From Clostridium sp. (lineage in GTDB: Bacteria; Bacillota_I; Bacilli_A; Acholeplasmatales; Anaeroplasmataceae), in NCBI GenBank assembly GCA_022010015.1, contig CP091735.1, positions 739,004-803,003 on the forward strand: a stretch of DNA of 64,000 nt, in the 5' to 3' direction. Positions 9,511 through 54,179 of the stretch are shown here, piece by piece; position 1 is the stretch's first letter; each line of letters starts with the position of its first letter. Made by a program: the position numbers and the translations under genes. Under the pieces are notes generated by a model. The model did not search any database and was not told where the DNA came from. It saw nothing but the letters and a program-made list of their open reading frames with translations.

Positions 9511-10910
9511 ATGCAAAAATCATCGGAAATTGATTTAACTAAGGGTAATTTATTTTGGAAGATGCCTAAATTTGTTTTGCCATTGATGATGACAACAATT
9601 TTTCAATTATTATACACAACAGTAGATTTATGGGCTGTATCTAATTATGGTGATGGTTCATCTTCAATGTCAGCAGTTGGTTCAAATTCAGCACTTATTA
9701 ATTTAATAATTACCGTTTTGGTATCTTTAGCTACTGGTGCAAATGTTTGCATTTCAATGGCCAAGGGTGCAAATGATCAGCCAAGAGCTAATAGAATTTT
9801 ACATACAGCTCTTATTGTAGCCTTTATAGGTGGTATTTTTGTAGGAATTTTTGGATTTTTTTTATCACCAGTTTTATTAAAGCTAATGGATACTCCGGAA
9901 TTTATTTATGCTAAAGCAACTATCTATTTAAGAATATATTTTCTTGGTGTACCACTATTAATGATTTATAATTATGGCTCACAAATGCTAAGAGCCCTTG
10001 GTGATTCTAAACGACCATTATTTATTTTAGTTATATCTGGTATATTTAATGTAGCTTGTGATTTATTATTTGTAATTTGCTTTCATATGGATGTAGCAGG
10101 TGTAGGTTATGCAACTGTAATAAGTGAAGGTATTGCCGCAGTTTTAACAATTGGTTGGTTTATAATTAATAAAAAAATGGCTTTTGTAAAATTAAAAGCT
10201 TAAGGAGCTTAAAGTTAGTAAAAAGAGAGCTACTTGATATTCTAAAAAAATAGGTATTCCTGCGGGAATTCAGGGTCTTGCCTTTTTGTATTCCTAATGT
10301 TTTAATTCAATCATCATTATATTCTATTAAGGAATATACAATTGATGGTGTTAAAATAAGTGTTGATGAAATAGTAACTGGTGCTTCAGCTTCATCACAA
10401 ATTGAAGGCTATGTATTTGCGATGCTTGATGCCTTTGCGGTTGGTCTTATATCATTTACTGGTCAAAATTATGGTGCTGGTAAAAAGGATAATATGCGTA
10501 AATGCTATTGGTTTGCGGTTAGTTGGATGATGATATTTTGGTTTGTTGCCTCAATAATTTGCTTTGCTATACCTAAGCAGCTTTTAGGAATTTTTATTAC
10601 AGAAACTGAGAAAATAAATGTTGCTAATGCTATTGCAGCTGGTAGAGAAAGACTTTATTTAATGGTATTTACTTATTTCTTAGATGGTTGGATGGGCATA
10701 AATAGTGATTATTTAAGAGGTATGAAGCGTTCTACACCACCAGCAATTATAACAATGATTGGTTGCTCTGGTACTCGTATTTTTATTCTTATTAACGTTA
10801 TTTAAAAACTCCTACCTTCCATACTATATTCTGGTTATATGCAGCATTCCCAATTAGCTGGATTTTTAGTTAATTTAGTATATATTCCAATTATTTTTAA
10901 TATATGAGCA
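9511..10910 (+). CDS. MATE family efflux transporter (frameshifted)
   Basis: Typical MATE N-terminus (GNLFWKMPKFVLPLMMTTIFQLLYTTVDLWAV) and 12-TM-like hydrophobic profile across track ORFs 9511-10203 and 10278-10805. The 3' end is approximate. Confidence 0.8.
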
Positions 10911-14806: not shown

Positions 14807-15386
14807 GATTAAAAGATGTGAGACTACAGATTTAGTGACTGTAGAAAAAAAATAACAAGATATTATTTTTGCTAAAGAGGTTAAAATGGATTTAGAGCTT
14901 GAGCAATTTATTTATCATTTTTTTTAGTACAGTATTATTTTTTTATAATAATGGTTTATCGATTGTTTTTAAAGGATGATGAGGTTAAGGCTTTTATTCT
15001 AGCTAATATGAAAAAAATGAAAAAAATGATTATTTAAATATATTTAAAAAGCTCTGTTAAGGCTTTAAATCCTAATAATATTAAGCTTGCTTATGAATAT
15101 TTAGATTATATTGAATATAATCATAAAAAGAGTATTAGCTTATATGGAGGATAATTCTATTTATTTAGGCTTAATTGCTAGTATGGTTCATCATGGTGGT
15201 ATTAATTTATTAGCTAGTCTTAAGGATCTTGCAAGAAAAAGAAATGTCCATAGCATATATCTATGGACAGATGAAACCTGTAATTATCATTATTATGAGG
15301 TTTTAGGATTTAAATTAATTGATAATTATGAAACAAAGCTTTATGATGTTTCACTAAAGACCTTCATTTATCAGATTGAACTCTGA
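14807..15386 (+). CDS. GNAT-type N-acetyltransferase (fragmented)
   Basis: The C-terminal ORF 15111-15386 has an acetyl-CoA-binding-like segment (HHGGINLLASLKDLARKRNVHSIYLWTDE..YYEVLGF). Upstream pieces are joined only tentatively. Confidence 0.5.
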
Positions 15387-15915
15387 TGAATAATGCTTTG
15401 AGGCTTCTTTGAATTCAATTCTTAGTCTTTTACTTAATCCAGCAGGAGATATAACATAAGCATCCTTACCAAATCTAAAGAAATATTGATAAATTTGCTC
15501 ATAGGCACATTTAAAATAATAAATATTTCCTTCCTTTTTATAAGGCTTTGGGCGATGAATATAAATATGCTTAAATTTTTTTATACCATTTGGTGTAAGC
15601 TTAATAATATATTCGCCAAATTTATCGGGATCACAAGCAAATTGTGGTCCCATATTTATTAGCTTATCAAGCTTTTTGTTTAGTTGTATCATTAAGCTCA
15701 AATTTATCCTTAGTGATTATTAAATTTGTAAGGGTAGGAAGTCTAAAGGAAAACATTCCACTATCATTATAGCAAATTAGATAATTAAATAATTCCTCTC
15801 CACTATAAACAAGCTTATAGGGCTTAAGGCTTGTTTTTTTGTTGCTTAAAGAAAATGAGATTATTCTTTTTTCAGCAATAGCCTTGTTTAATAATTCAAC
15901 CTTATCCTTAAACAT
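15354..15915 (-). CDS. WYL-domain protein with WCX-like C-terminus, no recognisable N-terminal HTH (one frameshift)
   Basis: RIISFSLSNKKTSLKPYKLVYSGEELFNYLICYNDSGMFSFRLPTLTNL fits the WYL pattern. FGKDAYVISPAGLSKRLRIEFKEASKHY fits the C-terminal extension seen in WYL regulators. Confidence 0.6.
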
Positions 15916-15917
15916 AT

Positions 15918-16366
15918 TTTTTCTCTAATGTATTGAGGTCTTTTTAGCATATGCTGAAAACAAAATGCGAAAATATTTAGATAAGCCTAAATCATTTAAA
16001 AAGATATTCAATACTATTTAAGGCATATTCACTTACCTTAGTTGGTTTTAAATGATAAGGCAGTGTCAAATATTTCATCCTTATTATTACGATTTAAAAA
16101 AATAATTGCTGATAATTCCTGAAACATCGTTTATTTTTAGTATTTGAAAGATTAGTTTCATTTTTTTAAAATTTCTTTTTATTTCACTATTTACCTTTTT
16201 GGTTTCTTCATCGTCAATATAGTTATAGTAATTAGCAATTAGGGTGTTGATAAAAAGATTTTTGATTAATTTCATCATCGGCTTTAAAGAATTTAAATAG
16301 TTCCATATCTTTTTTTAATATTTGAGCTACCTCACTACTTATATTTACCTTTATTTTTTTCCATGT
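15918..16366 (-). CDS. Hypothetical protein upstream of, and co-oriented with, the WYL gene (fragmented)
   Basis: AAGGAGT RBS plus ATG at 16366. Joined frames read ..SSEVAQILKKDMELFKFFKADDEINQKSFINTLIANYYNYIDDEE... No family recognised. Confidence 0.3.
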
Positions 16367-16496
16367 GTTTACTCCTTAAGTTCCTAAAAAGGGGGTATTA
16401 TTTAATAGTATTATATAATAAAAAAACATTGTAATATCAATAAAAAAGGTGGTCGAAATATATTTATAATTTGCAATCTTTTGTACCCCTTTATTT

Positions 16497-16505
16497 TGCT
16501 ATATA
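16497..16505 (+). promoter_or_regulatory. Extended -10 element (TGcTATATA) upstream of the large ncRNA
   Basis: TG at 16497-16498, hexamer TATATA at 16500-16505. The only -35-like boxes (TTGTAC 16481, TTGCAA 16471) have non-ideal spacing. Confidence 0.3.
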
Positions 16506-16528
16506 ATATAAGTGTCTTAAGGGACAAG

Positions 16529-17128
16529 CTAAATAGTTCTAATTATAGAATCCAAACCATGTGTATGAAGGTGGAATCTTGCATGGATGATAGACTCAAA
16601 ACAGAGCGGTCTAGTTAGATGGATACATTTAACATAGGTCAGTGGAGAGATTATGGTAACATAACCTCAAGAAGCCCTAAAGGGGTTATCTGTGTCTATT
16701 AGTGCATACTACATATCTTTATAAGTCATAGTTCTTATCGGAGTGGTAATTGACGCCTAAGTAGGAATAAACCTTGTAGCCTAGCCTGGTAAACTAGTAA
16801 CTATAAGGAAAGCTAATAACACTTTTTGATGTGATGTCTATAAAAAAGACTATAAGATAAGTTTATAGTGCCATAGGCCAAAGTCAGTAATATACTCGGC
16901 TGCTCTAATAGTGCGGTATTGTATGACATAAAATAAACAAAGTGATTTTGTCTGAACGCTTGGTTTTAGGTTGTGGGTATTAATCCCACCACGGCTTAGC
17001 ATGTCTAGGAAGTATATAGATAGCTACTATATGCTCAGACCTAGGCTCCGTGTGGACGAATAATAAATTTATGTAGGGTTGATAGTTGTAGGAAGAAATT
17101 TCTGGATTCTATAATTAGGACTATTTGG
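16529..17128 (+). ncRNA. ncRNA domain A (~600 nt)
   Basis: 16529-16554 pairs with 17103-17128: 26 contiguous pairs, 2 U-G wobbles, no mismatches. Internal hairpins at 16557-16586, 16651-16664 (GUAA loop), 16973-16989 and 17011-17036. Confidence 0.75.
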
Positions 17129-17140
17129 TTAAATAATAAA

Positions 17141-17663
17141 TATAGCTATAGCGTTATGTAACCTTGTGAAGAGGAATAGCAACCTGCAAGGATGTAGTTT
17201 TGCTTAAAAAAGAATGCGATAATATTTTTGGGAGATATTCTCTTATATTACGTTAGATGGTATGGTAACATAGCATTTAGGATCTAAAAGGAAACATTGA
17301 AAGCTATAGTGGTGAATATGTACGATGCTAAATCTTAAAACGCGCCGAAGCGACAATAGACGTTCCGGTGGGAAAGAACCTATGAGGGTTTGGCTTTGCA
17401 ACCATAAGCCTAGTAGGAATACCAAAATAAGCTTTTTGAGTTGAAGGTTAGTAATAACTGTATAAGACGCGTCTTTAGAGCGAGTAGCCATATCTCAAAA
17501 TAAAGAAATCCTGGTGAAAGTTGTAGGAATAAGGCCTATTATAGACTGCAATTGGGTAGACGGCAAACGCCTCGCTAGCTTTGTTTAATCTATCTACTAT
17601 ATGGATGAATAAGCAGATATATATATTCATTAAGAAGAAATTCTATATAACGTTATAGCTATG
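17141..17663 (+). ncRNA. ncRNA domain B (~520 nt), diverged paralog of domain A
   Basis: 17141-17160 pairs with 17644-17663: 20 pairs including 3 G-U wobbles. It shares at least 7 colinear sequence blocks with domain A. Hairpin 17162-17191 shows a compensatory change relative to domain A. Confidence 0.7.
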
Positions 17664-17690
17664 GTTATTGTTTTTTTGTATATTATTGTA

Positions 17691-17719
17691 AAGGACATAT
17701 TAAGGTATGTCCTTTTTTA
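17691..17719 (+). terminator. Intrinsic terminator of the ncRNA unit
   Basis: 8-bp stem AGGACATA (17692-17699) / TATGTCCT (17706-17713), 6-nt loop, then TTTTTT. Confidence 0.85.
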
Positions 17720-17959
17720 TTTGTTATAAATATTTAAATTGCTAATAAAAAAATAATACAATAGTTAATCAAGATTTGACTGATGGGAAAATAATTATAT
17801 TAAAGGCAAATGATATAGTTTCAGTATCATTTGATGATGTATTTTTGCTATAAAAGGTAATCGGTTATATCATATATAATATTCATAATACAACCACCAT
17901 ATAGACCATTGCTTATGATTAACAATAAAATTTTTAAAAAAATAATTGTTATTAATAAA

Positions 17960-18524
17960 TTATACTATTAGTTCATTAAAGCTAGCAAAGCAGGATCTAC
18001 TTAAAATATGCTTAAGCTCATCTATTTTTATTGGAATATCTCCCTTAAGCCATGATAGATATAGCTTGGTGATGCCTGAGGCAAAGAAGGTAGCATAATA
18101 GTATCTATTTGGTTTAGTTATATGATATGCTCCCTCTAAAATGGTAATAATACCATCGCGAAGGATATTTTCAAAGCACTCTCTAAAATAGGAATAGGAA
18201 TCGTTTTGGGCTATTTTTTGGAATAGCTCATAATTATTTAAAATAGTTTTATTTATAACATTGAAAATGTCTTTAATATCATAGCCATTATTTTTCAATA
18301 ATATAATTACTTAGGCTATCATTAAATGTTTTGTTTATATCAAGCATTATTTCATTAATTAAATCTTGAATTGAGCTATAATGAAGGTAAAATGTTTTTC
18401 TTTCAATGTTAGCCTTTAACGCGATTTCTTTAACAGTAATATGAGAAAGATTTTTTTGTTAATAATAGCTCTTTAAAAAAATGTGTTTGATATTTTCTTT
18501 AGTTTTTGTTACTCTTCTATCCAT
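17960..18524 (-). CDS. TetR/AcrR family transcriptional regulator (frameshifted)
   Basis: The N-terminus MDRRVTKTKENIKHIFL....ITVKEIALKANIERKTFYLHYSSIQDL is the TetR HTH signature. The C-terminal part is track ORF 17960-18298. Confidence 0.8.
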
Positions 18525-21825: not shown

Positions 21826-21917
21826 ATTAAAAGTTAGTCTAAGGCTTACTTTTTGTATTTTTCAATTAAACAATAGTAATGTATAATATAGGTAGTTAGA
21901 TTTTTTTGAGGTGTATT

Positions 21918-24297
21918 ATGGAAGAAAAAGTATATTCTTTAAATGAACTACCTATTGGTTCATCAGCTACAATTATCACTGTTAATGGTAGTGGTGCATT
22001 AAGACAACATTTCTTAGATATGGGCTTAATTCCAGGAGCTGTTGTTACCTTGGAGAAGCTTGCTCCTATGGGTGATCCTATGGAGCTTAGAATTCATGGC
22101 TATGAGCTTACTCTAAGAGTAGATGACGCTAAAAATATTGGCATATCTAAGCCATTTATTTTAAAAGAAGAGCCTAAGGAAAATATTAAAATTGATAATC
22201 AAGACCACCCAGGACTTGGTGAAGGTGGAAGGTATCATCTAAAGGAAAATGAAAATCCTTTGGCTAAGGATAAGGTTTTAAAGTTTGCATTAGTTGGTAA
22301 TCAAAATTGTGGTAAGACTACTTTGTTTAATTGTTTAACTGGTGAGAATCAGCATGTTGGTAATTTCCCAGGTGTTACTGTTGATAAAAAGGATGGTAGA
22401 ATAAAGAATTATGAAAATACCATTGTTACGGATTTGCCTGGTATTTATTCCTTGTCTCCATATAGCGATGAAGAAATTGTTTCAAGAAAATTTATTTTAG
22501 AGTCTAAGCCTAAGGCTATTATTAATATTGTTGATGCGACAAATATTGAGAGAAATCTTTATTTGACTCTTCAATTAATGGAGCTTGATATACCAATGAC
22601 TTTAGCTTTGAATATGATGGATGAGCTAACAGGCAATGGTGGTTATATTGATGTTAATAGAATGGAGGAAATGCTTGGTATACCAGTAGTACCAATTAGT
22701 GCTAAAAAGAATGAGGGTGTATCAGAGCTTGTTAGTCATAGTGTTCACGTTGCCTATTATCAGGAGAAGCCTATGGTTAATGATTTTTGTGATGAATTTG
22801 ATCATAATGGTGCTGTCCATCGTGCTATTCATGGTATAATGTATTTAATTGAGGATCATGCTAAGGCCGCAGGTATTCCTTTAAGATTTGCTTCGACTAA
22901 GGTTATTGAAGGGGATAAGATTGTTATTGAGGCTTTAAAGCTAAGCCAAAATGAACAAGAAATGATTGAGCATATTGTTGTTCAAATGGAGGATGAGCGT
23001 GGTCTTGATCGTAGTGCTGCTATTGCTGATATGAGATATCACTATATTGAAAAGGTATGTGATTTATGCGTTATAAAGCCTCATGAGTCAAAGGAGCATG
23101 TAAGAAGTAAGAAAATTGATAAAATATTAACTGGTAAATATACTGCTATCCCAATGTTTATATTAATATTAGGCCTTGTTTTCTTTTTGACATTCAATGT
23201 AATTGGTAAATGCCTACAGGATTTATTAAGCCTTGGTGTTGATAGCTTAACTAAGGTGATTGCAAGCTCATTTATTAAATGGAATGTTGAACCAGTAATT
23301 AATTCGTTAGTTGTTGATGGTATTTTAACAGGAATTGGTAGTGTTATATCATTTATGCCTATTATTATTGTTTTATTCTTTTTTTCTTATCTATTTTTAG
23401 AGGATTCTGGGTATATGGCTCGTGTTGCCTTTGTAATGGACAAGCTTTTAAGAAAGATTGGTTTATCTGGTAAATCAATTGTTCCACTTTTAATGGGCTT
23501 TGGTTGTACTGTTCCTGGTGTTATGTCAACAAGAACCTTATCGTCTGATCGTGATCGAAAAATGACAATTATGCTAACTCCATTTATGAGCTGCTCTGCT
23601 AAGCTTCCTATTTATAGCTTTTTAGCTTCCTTGTTTTTTAAGCAATATGCTTGGCTAGTGATGATTTCATTATATGTTATTGGTATTTTGATTGGTATTT
23701 TAGTAGCCTTTTATTGCCAAAAAAATTCTTCTCTCCGGGGGGAGCTGTTCCTTTTTGTAAGGGAGCTTCCTAATTATCGTAGGCCAACTATGAAGAATGT
23801 TTTTTTGAGTTATTAAAGGATAAAGTTATTGATTTCTTAAAAAGAGCCTTTTGGTATTATTTTTAATTGCTACTATTGCTATTTGGTTTTTTTACAATCA
23901 TTTAATTTTTAGATTTGAGCTTGTTAGTGATTCTAAGGATAGTATGCTTGCGGTTATTGCTGGTGGAATTGCCCCTATATTTAAGCCTCTTGGCTTTGGC
24001 GATTATCGTATTGTCACAGGTTTAATTTCTGGTGTTCTTGCTAAAGAAGGTGTTGTTTCAACATTAATGGTTTTATTTGGTAGTAAGGATGCAATACTTG
24101 CCTTTATTAATCCTTATGGTGCCTTCTGCTTATTAATATTTTGTTTATTATATACACCATGTGTTGCTGCTCTTGCCTCAATTAAACGTGAGCTTGGTCG
24201 CAAATATATGTTCTTTACAGTCTTTTTCCAATTAGGAATTGCTTATATATTTGCAGGAATCTTTAGCTTGATTTTTCATATAATAGGAGTAATGTAG
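21918..24297 (+). CDS. feoB: Ferrous iron transporter FeoA-FeoB fusion (frameshifted near 23700-23850)
   Basis: FeoA-like N-terminus (LPIGSSATIITVNG...ELRIHGYELTLR), G-domain (LVGNQNCGKTTLFN, DLPGIYSL, NMMDE) and polytopic C-terminus continuing in ORF 23851-24297. Confidence 0.9.
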
Positions 24298-51972: not shown

Positions 51973-52001
51973 TTGAAAAATAAAGATTTTTGTGCTATAA
52001 T
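51973..52001 (+). promoter_or_regulatory. Near-consensus sigma-A promoter
   Basis: TTGAAA (51973-51978), 17-nt spacer, TGcTATAAT (51993-52001, extended -10). Confidence 0.6.
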
Positions 52002-52261
52002 ACATATAGTAGTACTCGTATAGAGTTACTGAAACATTAAGAACAAGGTAAAGCGGCAGAACAAAACCAATAAATTATTAAAACCAAAAACTCTCGACGG
52101 GAGGTAACCGCCTATGAAACACATAAGACTATAATCGCAAAGAAATAACTTTTTCCTTGCAATTTTTTGTTACTTTTTAACTAATATAACGATATAAACG
52201 GAAATATTTTTTTACTTATAAACCGTTTTAAAAAATTAAAAAAACAGGAGGATTTAAAACT

Positions 52262-53727
52262 ATGAAAAAACTGCTTTTTTGCTTATTGTCGCTTGTTTGC
52301 GTTGTATGCTTGTTTACTGCTTGCAACAAGGATACTAAATACAAAATAACATTTCAGGATTTGTCCGTGCTGCCCGAAGGCGTAGAGAGCATCAAAAACG
52401 GACAGGGAACTATGGTAAGCGGAAACGGAGACGTCGAAACCATCTATTTTACTTCGGGTAAAGGTGGCTCGTTTTTTTCGTGACTGTCACGTTCAAAGAC
52501 GGCTACGATAAAGGCGATTTTAAGATATTTGCTAACGGAAAGGAAGCGGCAATCAGAAATAACAACGAAAAAATTCTTGATTACGAAGTTTATCCTACTT
52601 CAGACGTAAAAATCACTTTTACGGGTAAACCCGCAATAAAAAGTTACAACGTAACGGCGATCGGCGGCGACAACGATCGTGGGCAAATCTTGGAAGAGTT
52701 TTCGTATGAGTTGAAATACGTATTCGGAACGGAAGAATCTGAGCCTATAAAAGCAAATACTCTTGCGGAACTGAAAGATAAAATCAATTCGGACGTAAAA
52801 AAAGTAAAACACGGCACTAATATCACCATAACGGCTACACACACGGGAGAAATCGCTTTTCCCGACGATACTATGATTAGTTGTTTTTATTCAGGACTTG
52901 GTAAGGTTGTTGAAAAAAAGACAAAAATCGTCGGCGATACTCAGGTAAAGACTTGGGAGATTGCAGTTTTGTCGGACGTGAAAATAGATCTGGATCTCAG
53001 CATGACGTCACAAAATTTCTCACGTTGTATATACACCGACTTAACGCTTTTGGAGGGTGGCGTATACGACGGTGATTTCAACGAGATAGCAACGCTACAA
53101 GCACTTTACGATACGAATGGTAAAATTTACGCTCCGCTTCGTGATAACGCCACGGTACTTCATCTTGCCGAAAACTACAAAAAACTTACTATAAACGGCA
53201 AAACTGCAGATGGTAAATTTTTCTATAACGAAACCGATAAACGTTGGTATGTTGAACTCGATAAACCATTAGCTTACCAAAACGGAAGGGCGGACGGTTA
53301 TGACGTTTATTTTGCCAAAGGAGTAGAAGATTATATGCGCGGCGACTCCGCTTTAACCTGCGACGACATCGAGTTTAAGTCGAAAATTATGGACTGGGGC
53401 GAAAATTATTCCGCTCTACACGCCGAAGTATACGGCTATTACCGACTTAAAAACAACAGATTTTCGCTTGGTTTATGCTTTGCAAGCTCCGTAAACGATA
53501 TTAAGGTGATTGTCAACGGAACGAAAGAATTTGTTTTCCGTAACATACAAACGCTGGACGAAGAAACGCAAGAATTTGCAACGATTTATCGCTACGACGA
53601 AAACGATGCGGAATACGGAAGTTCATCGATCGTCAACGGCAAACCAGAAACGCACAAAATTGCGTTCGATCCTTCAACGTTCGGGGAAATAACGAGCGTT
53701 GAAATCGTGCTTGCAAGCGGAGAATAA
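52262..53727 (+). CDS. Lipoprotein of unknown function in a compositionally foreign (G+C-rich) segment; one T7-run frameshift at 52472-52478
   Basis: AGGAGG RBS. MKKLLFCLLSLVCVVCLFTACNKD is a signal peptide with lipobox. Track ORFs 52262-52483 and 52480-53727 join as ..GGSFF|VTVTFKDG... CG-rich codon usage is unlike the rest of the window. Confidence 0.8.
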
Positions 53728-54179
53728 AAGCATCTCGTTTTTGTTATAATTGCTTTGTAAAATAATGTTTTGGTAGGTCGTCGTTATTAAATTAAAAGCA
53801 CTAGGTGCTGTGATTGTTTGTTGTTTGACTTTTTCTTTATTGTTTTGTACGCCAAAAAAACACTTATCATGAAGAGACTTCTTTTAATGTTGTTTTAGTT
53901 AGACATTCTAGAGGTTAATAATATTCAATATTATTTATAAGAATAATTTAGTTATTATATGAATGAAGTATTACGATTAGTAAGCCTTTTTTGTTTAATT
54001 ATAAATAAATATACTTATATATAATTTGAACTTACAGAAAAATGACAATATTCTACAAATATCGACAAAAAAATATCGAAAAAAATAGGATGTTTTGATA
54101 AGAATTATCAGTTAAAATAATTTGTATTTATAGCGATGACCTTAATAAACTTGAAGGGACAATTTTTCATATGTTATAA

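What the first reader, a model, noticed from the sequence alone, without database searches (positions are those of the whole stretch)
16512..17719. About 1.2 kb ORF-free, G+C-enriched transcription unit folding into two tandem helix-closed 0.5-0.6 kb RNA domains (large ornate ncRNA, family unassigned)
Seen directly:
- No + strand ORF of 60 aa or more lies between 16278 and 17960.
- Local G+C is clearly above the flanks. For example, 17341-17400 is 33/60 G+C, while surrounding genes are near 25-30%.
- 16529-16554 pairs with 17103-17128 over 26 contiguous base pairs (2 U-G wobbles, 0 mismatches).
- 17141-17160 pairs with 17644-17663 over 20 bp (3 wobbles).
- Every wobble is G-U only on the + strand and would be an A-C mismatch on the - strand. 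This fixes the polarity and argues for RNA-level rather than DNA-level selection.
- Internal hairpins are dense, including GUAA-tetraloop stems at 16651-16664 and 17261-17272, plus 16973-16989 and 17011-17036.
- An extended -10 (16497-16505) precedes the unit, and a strong intrinsic terminator (17691-17719) ends it.

Inference: the domain size (about 600 and 520 nt) and complexity are in the range of the rare giant bacterial ncRNAs (ROOL, GOLLD, OLE). I cannot assign it to any of them from memory. I see no group I/II intron hallmarks.
Basis: partly seen in the sequence, partly recalled or inferred. Interest (0 to 1): 0.88.

Follow-up and report, generated by a model that had tools for sequence, protein, structure and literature searches.

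The report
Tandem ROOL RNA pair, probably heteromeric
The 1.2-kb gene-free stretch encodes two diverged copies of the known cage-forming ROOL RNA; their contact loops fit each other rather than themselves, so they may build the first natural mixed-subunit RNA cage, and an RNA-binding-type (WYL1-like) gene always sits beside them.

Summary
Rfam places two complete ROOL RNAs (RF03087) head to tail: copy A at 16529-17128 (217.7 bits) and copy B at 17138-17663 (194.4 bits); the gathering score is 99.1.

The arrangement appears to be new. All 46 ROOL loci sampled from phage contigs hold a single copy. The same A-B pair recurs in five bacterial lineages (A 60-70% identical, B 71-74%). Both copies show many compensatory helix changes, so both are maintained.

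In solved ROOL cages, neighbouring chains are joined by two base-paired bridges (L2 with the post-linker segment, L8 with J6/8). Single-copy ROOLs are self-complementary at both. Here neither copy is. A's loops match B's receptors and B's loops match A's, with two compensatory changes across copies. Heterotypic duplexes average -3.5 kcal/mol and homotypic +0.8. The likeliest reading is an alternating A-B hetero-oligomer, probably A4B4. Covariation statistics are weak because there are only five lineages.

A divergently transcribed WYL1-like gene (ribbon-helix-helix plus WYL domains) accompanies the pair in all five lineages. Distant homologues sit beside RtcB RNA-repair or AAA-ATPase genes instead.

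The parts
15357..16360 (-). WYL1-like protein gene (two ribbon-helix-helix units, a WYL beta-barrel and a C-terminal domain), divergent from the ROOL pair. It is broken over three frames in this assembly.
   Evidence: tblastn of the 333-aa L088 protein hits 16360-16253, 16260-15673 and 16121-15357. The gene is intact (331 aa) in the close relative L001. PADLOC WYL model, E 3e-11. Family profile against PDB sequences: WYL1 6OAW, E 2.3e-20. AlphaFold2 model pLDDT 89; Foldseek top hit 6OAW, TM 0.68.
16442..16476 (.). Conserved intergenic block AAAAAAGGTGGTCGAAATATATTTATAATTTGCAA (GGTGGTC at 16448-16454); candidate operator or promoter element.
   Evidence: Conserved in all five lineages (GGGGGTC in L096) although the intergenic DNA around it has diverged. 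Function is inferred.
16497..16507 (+). Promoter -10 region: TG (16497-16498) and TATAAT (16502-16507).
   Evidence: Sequence. TATAAT is conserved in 4 of 5 lineages at the same distance from ROOL A. No -35 at 16-18 nt. Not tested experimentally.
16512..16528 (+). Predicted transcript start (conserved GTGTC, 16512-16516) and a short 5' leader hairpin (GUCU/GGAC, 16514-16525).
   Evidence: GTGTC is conserved in four of the five lineages (GTATC in L097), 5-7 nt after the -10. The hairpin changes sequence but stays paired (GUCAC/GUGAC in L088). Inferred.
16529..17128 (+). ROOL RNA copy A (closing helix P1: 16529-16554 with 17103-17128).
   Evidence: Rfam RF03087 at 16533-17121, 217.7 bits, E 6.6e-48, full length. 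Helix verified. 28 of 132 predicted pairs show compensatory double changes across lineages.
16573..16576 (+). A-L2 loop contact nucleotides, GGAA (bridge B1 donor).
   Evidence: Complementary to B-post (UCC), not to A-post. G to A in L095 is matched by C to U in B-post.
16788..16791 (+). A-L8 loop contact nucleotides, GGUA (bridge B4 donor).
   Evidence: 4/4 Watson-Crick pairs with B-J UACC. Only G.U, G-C, U.G with A's own J.
16811..16814 (+). A-J6/8 receptor, AGCU (bridge B4 acceptor).
   Evidence: Pairs with B-L8 UGCA through the central G-C and C-G. In L095-L097 the flanking positions covary with B-L8 to give 4/4.
16957..16960 (+). A post-linker receptor, CGCU (bridge B1 acceptor).
   Evidence: GCU pairs with B-L2 AGC (3 Watson-Crick pairs) and does not pair with A-L2.
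17033..17040 (+). GCUCAGAC motif of copy A; it holds the self-pairing G/C of inter-half-shell bridge B6.
   Evidence: Invariant in copy A in all five lineages. Replaced by GU.. or AU.. in copy B (window 17581-17594 region).
17129..17140 (+). Spacer between the two closing helices (UUAAAUAAUAAA).
   Evidence: By Rfam boundaries the spacer is 16 nt here and 5-13 nt in the other lineages.
17141..17663 (+). ROOL RNA copy B (closing helix P1: 17141-17160 with 17644-17663).
   Evidence: Rfam RF03087 at 17138-17663, 194.4 bits, E 3.1e-42, full length. Helix verified. 32 of 160 predicted pairs show compensatory double changes.
17178..17181 (+). B-L2 loop contact nucleotides, AGCA (bridge B1 donor).
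   Evidence: AGC pairs with A-post GCU. At most 1 pair with B-post.
17397..17400 (+). B-L8 loop contact nucleotides, UGCA (bridge B4 donor).
   Evidence: Central GC pairs with A-J. Does not fit B's own J (x|x|).
17420..17423 (+). B-J6/8 receptor, UACC (bridge B4 acceptor).
   Evidence: Perfect complement of A-L8 GGUA. Conserved in four lineages (AACC in L096, CACC in the L088 strain).
17508..17511 (+). B post-linker receptor, AUCC (bridge B1 acceptor).
   Evidence: UCC pairs with A-L2 GGA. Becomes UUC in L095, where A-L2 is GAA.
17690..17722 (+). Intrinsic terminator (AAAGGACATAT-TAAG-GTATGTCCTTT followed by a T-run).
   Evidence: Terminator scan. Present in the window lineage only; in lineage 2 an AAA-ATPase gene starts 24 nt after copy B.

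Best explanation
Shown. The unit is a non-coding transcription unit that carries two complete, diverged ROOL RNAs in tandem. The two copies are about 50% identical. They descend from a single old duplication and both are kept in every lineage found.

Established by others. ROOL RNAs fold into flat monomers that assemble without protein into closed cages. Each half-shell is a head-to-tail ring, held by base-paired bridges B1 (L2 loop to the neighbour's post-linker segment) and B4 (L8 loop to the neighbour's J6/8).

Inferred here. In this clade the bridge nucleotides of each copy no longer fit their own receptors but fit those of the other copy, in both directions. The two RNAs therefore most likely co-assemble in alternating A-B-A-B rings, giving an obligate hetero-oligomer (A4B4 if the octamer geometry is kept). 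An alternating ring needs an even number of members.

Transcription probably starts a few bases after the conserved TATAAT (16502-16507) and ends at the terminator (17690-17722), which would supply the two subunits 1:1.

The divergently transcribed WYL1-like protein is conserved with the pair, and the intergenic DNA holds a conserved block. The protein is most likely the unit's regulator, an RNA-sensing partner, or both. The cellular role of the cage is still unknown. The context points towards RNA-damage or RNA-repair physiology rather than phage biology. This last step is the weakest inference.
For: Identity: Rfam ROOL at 217.7 and 194.4 bits, full length.

The same pair elsewhere: L001; L084 and L087-L090; L095-L097.

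Both copies under structural selection: 28/132 and 32/160 predicted pairs with compensatory double changes.

One duplication, both kept: A-A 67% mean identity, B-B 75%, A-B 52%, either copy against single-copy ROOLs 46-47%.

Contact map: from the env-120 cryo-EM structure, Kretsch et al. 2025, PMC12286853, Supplementary Table 2.

Controls: single-copy ROOLs are self-complementary at B4 (25/26 with 3 core Watson-Crick pairs) and at B1 (17/17 with at least 3 contiguous).

Tandem copies: homotypic contacts never exceed one adjacent Watson-Crick pair. Heterotypic contacts have 2-4 contiguous Watson-Crick pairs in every lineage.

Compensatory changes between copies: A-L2 GGA to GAA with B-post UCC to UUC in L095. 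B-L8 position 307 with A-J position 335 reads U.U, then U-A, then C-G.

Pair-counting tool: heterotypic model 78.6% paired against 14-45% when slid out of register. Homotypic model 54.5%, with five pairs that never form.

Register-free duplex energies: heterotypic mean -3.5 kcal/mol (all 20 favourable), homotypic +0.8. Single-copy self reference -4.8.

Rarity: 0 of 46 ROOL loci from phage contigs are tandem.

WYL1-like neighbour. WYL1 binds ssRNA (Zhang et al. 2019, PMC6547453).
Against: Nothing has been tested at the bench: no transcript, assembly or stoichiometry data.

Only five lineages (seven distinct sequences) are available. The shuffle control of the pair-counting tool is not significant (covariation score reached by 75 of 500 shuffles). 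The case therefore rests on the complementarity pattern and two compensatory events, not on robust covariation statistics.

Contact sites were placed by local context in the register seen in most single-copy ROOLs, because MAFFT shifted two short loops. For B1 this register is 1 nt off that of env-120.

B-to-A contacts are weak in the window's own lineage and in lineage 2 (two G-C pairs flanked by mismatches).

A-L8 with A's own J can still form three pairs if wobbles count (G.U, G-C, U.G), so some A-A association is not excluded.

Copy B lacks the conserved GCUCAGAC used at the half-shell interface.

Whether the 5-16 nt spacer is compatible with neighbouring positions in a ring, or is cleaved, is unknown.

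The regulator role of the WYL1-like protein and the RNA-repair link are guilt by association.
Confidence: 0.6

Rival explanations
1. Two independent ROOL RNAs that are merely co-transcribed. Each forms its own homo-oligomer, or works as a monomer, using relaxed, wobble or non-base-paired contacts. The duplication gives dosage or two cages with different cargo or stoichiometry.
For: All solved ROOL assemblies are homo-oligomers. Different ROOLs already differ in stoichiometry: hexamer against octamer. A-L8 with A's own J keeps three pairs if wobbles count (75% of cells paired). Cross-class 4/4 matches at B4 arise by chance in 14 of 240 comparisons, because GGUA/UACC is a common class.
Against: Both copies lose self-complementarity at both bridges, which single-copy ROOLs essentially never do (1/26 and 0/17). 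Homotypic duplex energies are about zero or positive in all five lineages. Five homotypic pairs never form in any sequence. Changes in one copy are matched in the other. Both paralogues are retained in 5 of 5 lineages across about 30-40% divergence.
Confidence: 0.2
2. The pair acts as a covalently linked heterodimer, an open assembly or a ribonucleoprotein with the WYL1-like protein, not as a closed cage. For example, copy A docks on copy B of the same transcript and the weak B-to-A contacts are not used.
For: A-to-B contacts are strong and invariant, while B-to-A contacts are weak in two lineages. The spacer is short, 5-16 nt. Copy B lacks the GCUCAGAC inter-shell motif. An ssRNA-binding-type protein is always adjacent.
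Against: B-to-A contacts are 3-4 Watson-Crick pairs in L095-L097 and covary, which argues that they are used. Both copies keep the whole ROOL fold. No evidence bears on protein binding.
Confidence: 0.15
3. The region is something other than ROOL: a new RNA family, a group I or II intron, or a frameshifted protein gene.
For: The window does carry many frameshift-type assembly errors, so the absence of an ORF is weak evidence on its own.
Against: Two full-length ROOL matches at E 1e-42 to 1e-48, and no other Rfam family reaches its gathering score in the window. Helices show compensatory changes. The region is also ORF-free in the related assemblies.
Confidence: 0.01

Closest known systems
ROOL RNA homo-octameric nanocage (env-120, PDB 9MDS; E. 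faecalis ROOL, 9J3T)
   Same: Same family by covariance model. Same helix-closed multi-junction fold. The same bridge elements (L2, post-linker, L8, J6/8) are present in both copies at the expected places.
   Different: The known cages are built from one RNA whose loops fit its own receptors. Here there are two paralogous RNAs whose loops fit each other's receptors. Copy B lacks the GCUCAGAC motif. The context is chromosomal, with no tRNA or phage genes in 64 kb.
L. salivarius ROOL homo-hexamer (PDB 9J6Y)
   Same: It shows that small sequence changes alter ROOL stoichiometry within the family.
   Different: It has three-membered rings. Strict A-B alternation cannot close an odd-membered ring, so the tandem pair predicts even-membered rings.
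   Same: A ring of RNA subunits held by loop-loop base pairs. Changing loop complementarity turns a homo-oligomer into an obligate hetero-oligomer made of two RNAs.
   Different: For pRNA the heteromers were made in the laboratory. Here the swap appears to have evolved naturally, in a much larger RNA and at two bridges at once.
Tandem glycine riboswitch (two homologous aptamers in one transcript that dock on each other; from my own knowledge, cited as ref. 64 in PMC5737381)
   Same: A tandem duplication of a structured RNA domain whose two copies have specialised and contact each other.
   Different: It is a small cis-regulatory element that forms an intramolecular dimer. It is not a free-standing multimeric cage RNA.
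GOLLD RNA (14-mer cage)
   Same: A large ornate RNA that forms a protein-free cage with kissing-loop bridges.
   Different: Unrelated sequence and fold. No Rfam hit in the window.
WYL1, the Cas13d accessory protein (PDB 6OAW), and the WYL transcription factors DriD, PafBC, CapW and BrxR
   Same: The neighbouring protein matches WYL1 over its full length in sequence profile (E 2e-20) and in fold (TM 0.68). It has two ribbon-helix-helix units, a WYL barrel and a C-terminal domain. Like the WYL transcription factors, it is divergent from the genes it may control.
   Different: About 20% identity to WYL1. No Cas13d gene appears among the called genes (Pfam annotations) of the loci fetched; lineage 2 has only a type II-A Csn2 gene nearby. 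The ligand and the DNA target are unknown.

Membership tests
ROOL RNA (Rfam RF03087) | Covariance-model score above the curated gathering score, with full-length coverage of the model | tested here: met
   Copy A 217.7 bits and copy B 194.4 bits against a gathering score of 99.1. Both cover model positions 1-574 of 574.
ROOL RNA (Rfam RF03087) | Long closing helix and nested multi-junction architecture maintained by compensatory substitutions | tested here: met
   Closing helices of 26 bp and 20 bp. 28/132 (A) and 32/160 (B) predicted pairs show double compensatory changes across lineages, including in the closing helices.
ROOL RNA (Rfam RF03087) | Conserved sequence motifs (ACAAUAGACG, GUAUAA, a GNRA hairpin, GAAUA, GCUCAGAC) | tested here: met
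   Copy A: AAUUGACG (one change), UAUAAG, GUAA loop, GAAUA, GCUCAGAC. Copy B: ACAAUAGACG, GUAUAAG, GUAA loop, GAAUA, but GUUUAAUC in place of GCUCAGAC. Met, with that one exception in copy B.
ROOL RNA (Rfam RF03087) | L8 loop complementary to the J6/8 of the same RNA sequence (bridge B4; the covarying 'pseudoknot' of the family) | tested here: not met
   Self pairing: copy A gives G.U, G-C, U.G and a mismatch; copy B gives 1 of 3 core pairs. Single-copy ROOLs: 25 of 26 have 3 core Watson-Crick pairs. Complementarity is met between the copies instead. This does not remove family membership but marks a variant.
ROOL RNA (Rfam RF03087) | Assembly into a protein-free homo-oligomeric cage | not testable with these tools
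   Needs in vitro assembly with mass photometry or cryo-EM.
ROOL RNA (Rfam RF03087) | Usual context: phage or prophage, near tRNA genes (typical, not obligatory) | tested here: not met
   No tRNA in 64 kb. Flanking genes are cellular. No match in the phage collection. Weinberg et al. 2017 state that ROOL also occurs outside prophages.
GOLLD, OLE, HEARO, raiA, group I and group II introns | Rfam covariance-model match at the gathering score | tested here: not met
   Scanning the whole window against all 4227 Rfam families returned only the two ROOL matches.
WYL1-like proteins (neighbouring gene) | Full-length similarity to WYL1: two ribbon-helix-helix units, a WYL Sm-like barrel and a C-terminal dimerisation domain | tested here: met
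   Family profile against 6OAW: E 2.3e-20 over profile positions 62-327 of 330. AlphaFold2 model pLDDT 89.2. Foldseek hits to 6OAW_A and 6OAW_B at E about 1e-15, TM 0.51 and 0.68.
WYL1-like proteins (neighbouring gene) | Genomic association with Cas13d (type VI-D CRISPR) | tested here: not met
   No Cas13d-like gene appears among the called genes of the related loci (Pfam annotations) or among the window ORFs scanned against Pfam. Only Csn2 (type II-A) is seen, in lineage 2. The test is limited to about 4 kb on each side and to those annotations.
WYL1-like proteins (neighbouring gene) | High-affinity ssRNA binding | not testable with these tools
   Shown for RspWYL1 only (PMC6547453).

The most novel reading that the evidence does not exclude
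A clade of low-G+C gut or rumen bacteria makes an obligate two-component RNA cage. An ancestral ROOL gene duplicated in tandem. The two paralogues then exchanged the specificities of both ring bridges, so that only alternating A-B rings can close (A4B4). This would be the first natural hetero-oligomeric RNA-only assembly. The unit is controlled or bound by an RNA-sensing WYL1-like protein. Elsewhere that protein's relatives sit beside RtcB RNA-repair and AAA-ATPase genes, which would tie ROOL function to RNA-damage responses.
Probability: 0.45. Interest if true: 0.85.

Novelty: new variant of a known kind. Interest (0 to 1): 0.7.

Why it matters
ROOL was described in 2017 and its cage structure was solved in 2025, but its function and partners are unknown. 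All natural RNA cages seen so far are homo-oligomers.

If the pair is heteromeric, it shows that RNA quaternary structure can evolve by duplication and interface swapping, as protein complexes do. It would also supply a natural two-component, programmable RNA cage for nanotechnology. The prediction is clean and cheap to test: each RNA alone should fail to assemble and the mixture should succeed.

The conserved WYL1-like neighbour, and its relatives next to RtcB and AAA-ATPase genes, give what appears to be the first concrete protein and pathway lead for ROOL biology. The Kretsch paper states that no protein partner has been identified.

If the heteromer idea fails, the locus is still a secure ROOL annotation in an unusual, non-phage context.

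Tried and rejected
- Alternative genetic code as the cause of sparse ORFs: recoding TGA or TAG did not clearly restore genes. The cause is homopolymer indels.
- Phage origin: megablast of 12 kb against 50,697 phage records found nothing. No tRNAs.
- Exact look-up of a window protein: not on record, probably because of the frameshift errors.
- My first genome-collection pattern was too strict.
- A general junction pattern for tandem ROOLs is insensitive, because its motifs occur in only 2-13 of 32 ROOLs. It found nothing in viral contigs. In metagenomes it gave four stretches, of which only L084 holds ROOL; three were chance hits.
- Distant homologues of the AAA ATPase (L091-L094) and of the WYL1-like protein (L098, L099) have no ROOL next to them.
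- The whole-unit MAFFT alignment shifted two short loops, so I scored locally anchored sites instead.
- The shuffle control for cross-copy covariation is not significant with seven sequences. I therefore do not claim statistical covariation.
I used P0121, which is 95% identical.
- The strict env-120 register for B1 does not fit. The register used is the one found in most single-copy ROOLs.
- Literature searches for tandem or heteromeric ROOL, and for ROOL with WYL or RtcB, found nothing. The Ling et al. and Wang et al. 2025 structure papers are not in the library, so I could not check them directly.
Full report
OBSERVATION. Between 16278 and 17960 the + strand has no ORF of 60 aa or more. G+C is 35-36% against 27% for the window. 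The two long closing helices pair exactly as stated: 24 Watson-Crick pairs plus 2 G-U with no mismatch, and 17 Watson-Crick pairs plus 3 G-U. The GUAA hairpins, the TG-TATATA/TATAAT element and the terminator at 17690-17715 are all present.

IDENTITY. A scan of the whole window against all 4227 Rfam families at gathering thresholds gives exactly two matches, both to ROOL (RF03087). They lie at 16533-17121 (217.7 bits, E 6.6e-48) and 17138-17663 (194.4 bits, E 3.1e-42). Each covers model positions 1-574 of 574, and the gathering score is 99.1. They are only about 50% identical to each other.

BACKGROUND ON ROOL. ROOL is a known family (Weinberg et al. 2017, PMC5737381; Cousin et al. 2017, PMC5643018). 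Cryo-EM has shown that it forms protein-free homo-octameric cages, or hexameric ones in L. salivarius (Kretsch et al. 2025, PMC12286853; review PMC12990946; commentary on Ling et al., PMC12515178). Its function is unknown.

CONTEXT AND SEQUENCE QUALITY. The window has no tRNA and no match in the phage collection. Its flanking genes are cellular: a DEAD-box helicase, MatE, an M42 peptidase, a GDSL lipase, a TetR-type fragment, DegV and FeoAB. Many genes look broken, but not because of an unusual genetic code. Compared with the near-identical MAG contig L001 ('uncultured Mollicutes bacterium'), the window differs by 70 indels. Of these, 42 are in homopolymer context and 50 are extra bases in the window. 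The same genes are intact in L001 under table 11. So the window has homopolymer-length assembly errors. None touches the features used below.

IS THE TANDEM ARRANGEMENT USUAL? A motif scan of viral contigs gave 81 stretches (loci L002-L081 were analysed). An iterated nhmmer profile, which detects both A and B at E below 1e-60, found ROOL in 46 of them, always as a single copy. None of the ROOL papers I could read mentions tandem copies.

The pair does recur in relatives:
- L001, the same lineage as the window (A 96.5% identical, B 99.1%).
- A second lineage, found by a junction pattern in metagenomes (L084) and extended through the adjacent AAA-ATPase gene (L087-L090).
- Three further lineages, found through the upstream protein (L095, L096, L097).

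In all five lineages, two full-length ROOLs (204-269 bits) lie head to tail, 5-16 nt apart by Rfam boundaries.

EVOLUTION OF THE PAIR. The A copies form one orthologue group (mean identity 67%) and the B copies another (75%). A against B is 52%, and either copy against single-copy ROOLs is 46-47%. This fits one ancestral tandem duplication with both paralogues retained ever since. Between lineages, 28 of 132 predicted pairs in A and 32 of 160 in B have compensatory double substitutions, including in the closing helices. Both copies are therefore maintained as folded RNAs, and neither is a decaying duplicate.

THE CONTACT ANALYSIS. In the env-120 cage, each chain gives two loops to the next chain in its four-membered ring. 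Bridge B1 pairs L2 A38-C41 with G465-U468 of the neighbour. Bridge B4 pairs L8 G307-A310 with U332-C335 (J6/8) of the neighbour. B4 is the conserved, covarying 'pseudoknot' of the family.

Single-copy ROOLs must be self-complementary at these sites, and they are:
- At B4, 25 of 26 have three Watson-Crick core pairs, with clear covariation such as GAGA:UCUC, AGCA:UGCU, GGAA:UUCC and GGUG:CACC.
- At B1, 17 of 17 have at least three contiguous Watson-Crick pairs.

In the window neither copy is self-complementary:
- B4: copy A with itself gives G.U, G-C, U.G and a mismatch. Copy B with itself gives 1 of 3 core pairs.
- B1: each copy has at most 2 contiguous pairs with itself.

Across copies the fit is good:
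- A-L8 GGUA with B-J UACC gives 4/4.
- A-L2 GGA with B-post UCC gives 3/3.
- B-L2 AGC with A-post GCU gives 3/3.
- B-L8 UGCA with A-J AGCU gives the two central G-C pairs.

The same holds in all five lineages. Every heterotypic contact has 2-4 contiguous Watson-Crick pairs. No homotypic contact has more than one adjacent Watson-Crick pair.

Two changes are compensated across copies. In L095, A-L2 GGA becomes GAA while B-post UCC becomes UUC. B-L8 position 307 with A-J position 335 reads U.U in the window and lineage 2, U-A in L095 and C-G in L096 and L097, which brings that bridge to 4/4.

The pair-counting tool was run on composite sequences of the eight sites. The heterotypic model gives 78.6% paired cells, against 14-45% when slid out of register, with ten invariant Watson-Crick pairs and two pairs changed on both sides. 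The homotypic model gives 54.5% only by counting wobbles, and five of its pairs never form. Register-free duplex energies agree: heterotypic mean -3.5 kcal/mol with all 20 combinations favourable, homotypic mean +0.8, and single-copy self reference -4.8.

LIMITS OF THIS EVIDENCE.
- With seven distinct sequences the shuffle control is not significant (75 of 500).
- The sites were placed by local context, because the global alignment shifted two loops.
- The B1 register is that of most single-copy ROOLs and is 1 nt off env-120.
- B-to-A contacts are weak in two lineages, including the window's own.
- A-L8 with A's own J still forms three pairs if wobbles count.

MECHANISM. Steps that are shown: two ROOL RNAs, one strand, one ORF-free unit, a conserved pair, both copies structurally constrained, and bridge nucleotides complementary between the copies rather than within them.

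Steps that are inferred: the two RNAs co-assemble head to tail as A-B-A-B rings, and so form an A4B4 cage if the octamer geometry holds. An alternating ring must have an even number of members, which excludes the hexamer geometry. Co-transcription from the conserved TATAAT (16502-16507; conserved GTGTC start at 16512-16516) to the terminator would supply the subunits 1:1.

Open points. Copy A keeps the family's GCUCAGAC, whose GC self-pairs across the equator (bridge B6), in all lineages. Copy B has GU.. or AU.. there. I do not know how the half-shells join at the B positions. I also do not know whether the spacer stays intact.

THE CONSERVED NEIGHBOUR. Immediately upstream and divergent lies a gene of 331-333 aa. 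It is present in all five lineages (56-62% identity to the L001 protein between lineages). It is broken by assembly errors in the window (15357-16360, - strand) and intact in L001. It has no Pfam hit above threshold. However, it matches PADLOC WYL models (E 3e-11), and its family profile matches WYL1 (PDB 6OAW) at E 2.3e-20 over almost the full length. A confident AlphaFold2 model (pLDDT 89, pTM 0.79) shows two beta-alpha-alpha units, a five-stranded barrel and a C-terminal domain. Its best structural match is 6OAW (E about 1e-15, TM 0.68), followed by the ssDNA-sensing WYL transcription factors DriD, PafBC, CapW and BrxR.

RspWYL1 has two ribbon-helix-helix motifs, a Sm-like WYL barrel and a dimerising C-terminal domain, and it binds ssRNA far better than DNA (PMC6547453). 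The intergenic region keeps a block AAAGGTGGTCRAAA... in all five lineages (GGGGGTC in L096). The protein is absent from the phage single-copy ROOL loci.

More distant family members (35-41% identity) occupy the same divergent position next to an RtcB-RlaP-CCA-enzyme operon (L098) or an AAA ATPase (L099), with no ROOL. In lineage 2 an AAA-ATPase gene starts 24 nt after ROOL B, with a ribosome-binding site and no terminator. In L092 and L093, RtcB directly precedes a homologue of that ATPase.

I infer, with modest confidence, that the WYL1-like protein regulates or binds the ROOL unit, and that the module belongs to an RNA-damage or RNA-repair type of response.

COMPARISON WITH WHAT IS KNOWN, AND NOVELTY. 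Both RNAs are members of ROOL on every testable criterion except self-complementarity of the ring bridges, which they fail in cis and meet in trans. The closest functional analogies are the known ROOL homo-octamer, the loop-swapped hetero-oligomers engineered from phi29 pRNA, and the tandem glycine riboswitch (the last two from my own knowledge).

The tandem, apparently heteromeric variant with its WYL1-like partner is not described in any paper I could search. I could not read the Ling et al. and Wang et al. 2025 papers. I rate it a new variant of a known kind.

VERDICT. It is near-certain that these are two ROOL RNAs. I put about 0.6 on heterotypic co-assembly, and less on the exact A4B4 geometry and on the regulatory and RNA-repair link. 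Interest is 0.7. The family assignment itself is routine, but the locus offers a sharp, cheap experiment on RNA quaternary evolution and what appears to be the first protein and pathway lead for ROOL function.

Noticed in passing
window 9511-10805, 15357-16360, 21906-24297 and elsewhere: Many genes are split by frameshifts: MatE in two frames, FeoB truncated, the WYL1-like gene in three frames. Against L001 the window has 70 indels, 42 in homopolymer context and 50 as extra bases in the window. This points to assembly (homopolymer) errors rather than pseudogenes.
   Followed up: yes
window 52001-54000: A G+C island of 37-38% against 27% elsewhere. It contains a 415-aa ORF (52480-53727) with no Pfam hit.
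   Followed up: no
L068, L014, L078, L053, L046, L020 (5' flanks of their ROOLs): Single-copy phage ROOLs are directly preceded by tRNA-like 3' ends (GGTTCAAATCC or GGTTCGAATCC T-arm motifs). This fits the published ROOL-tRNA linkage and contrasts with the tRNA-free window.
   Followed up: partly
L098 570-3833; L092 2575-5141; L099 2419-3855: Distant homologues of the WYL1-like protein are divergent from an RtcB-RlaP-CCA-adding-enzyme operon (L098) or an AAA ATPase (L099). In L092 and L093, RtcB directly precedes a homologue of the AAA ATPase that follows ROOL B in lineage 2. Together these suggest a recurring WYL1-like / RtcB / AAA-ATPase / ROOL neighbourhood.
   Followed up: partly
L087-L090, 3977-4001: In lineage 2 the AAA-ATPase start codon lies 24 nt after ROOL B, with an AGGAGG ribosome-binding site and no terminator. 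The mRNA may be fused 3' of a cage-forming RNA.
   Followed up: partly
L087 1-534, L089 1-534: A Csn2 gene (type II-A CRISPR-Cas) lies about 1.2 kb beyond the end of the WYL1-like gene (about 2.3 kb upstream of ROOL A) in lineage 2. No Cas13d gene was seen.
   Followed up: no
L095 5067-5168 (-); L097 7754-7934 (-): A c-di-GMP-I riboswitch and a T-box leader (before the seryl-tRNA synthetase gene) were picked up by Rfam in related loci. They are unrelated to the finding.
   Followed up: no
window 16471-16476 and 16502-16507: A -35-like hexamer (TTGCAA; TTGAAA, TTGAGT, TTGGTA or TTGATA in the other lineages) is conserved 24-25 nt upstream of the conserved TATAAT. That is too far for a standard sigma-70 promoter and is unexplained.
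   Followed up: partly
window 17960-18298 (-): A 112-aa ORF matches only the C-terminal domain of TetR-type regulators (PF14278). It is probably another gene truncated by assembly errors.
   Followed up: no
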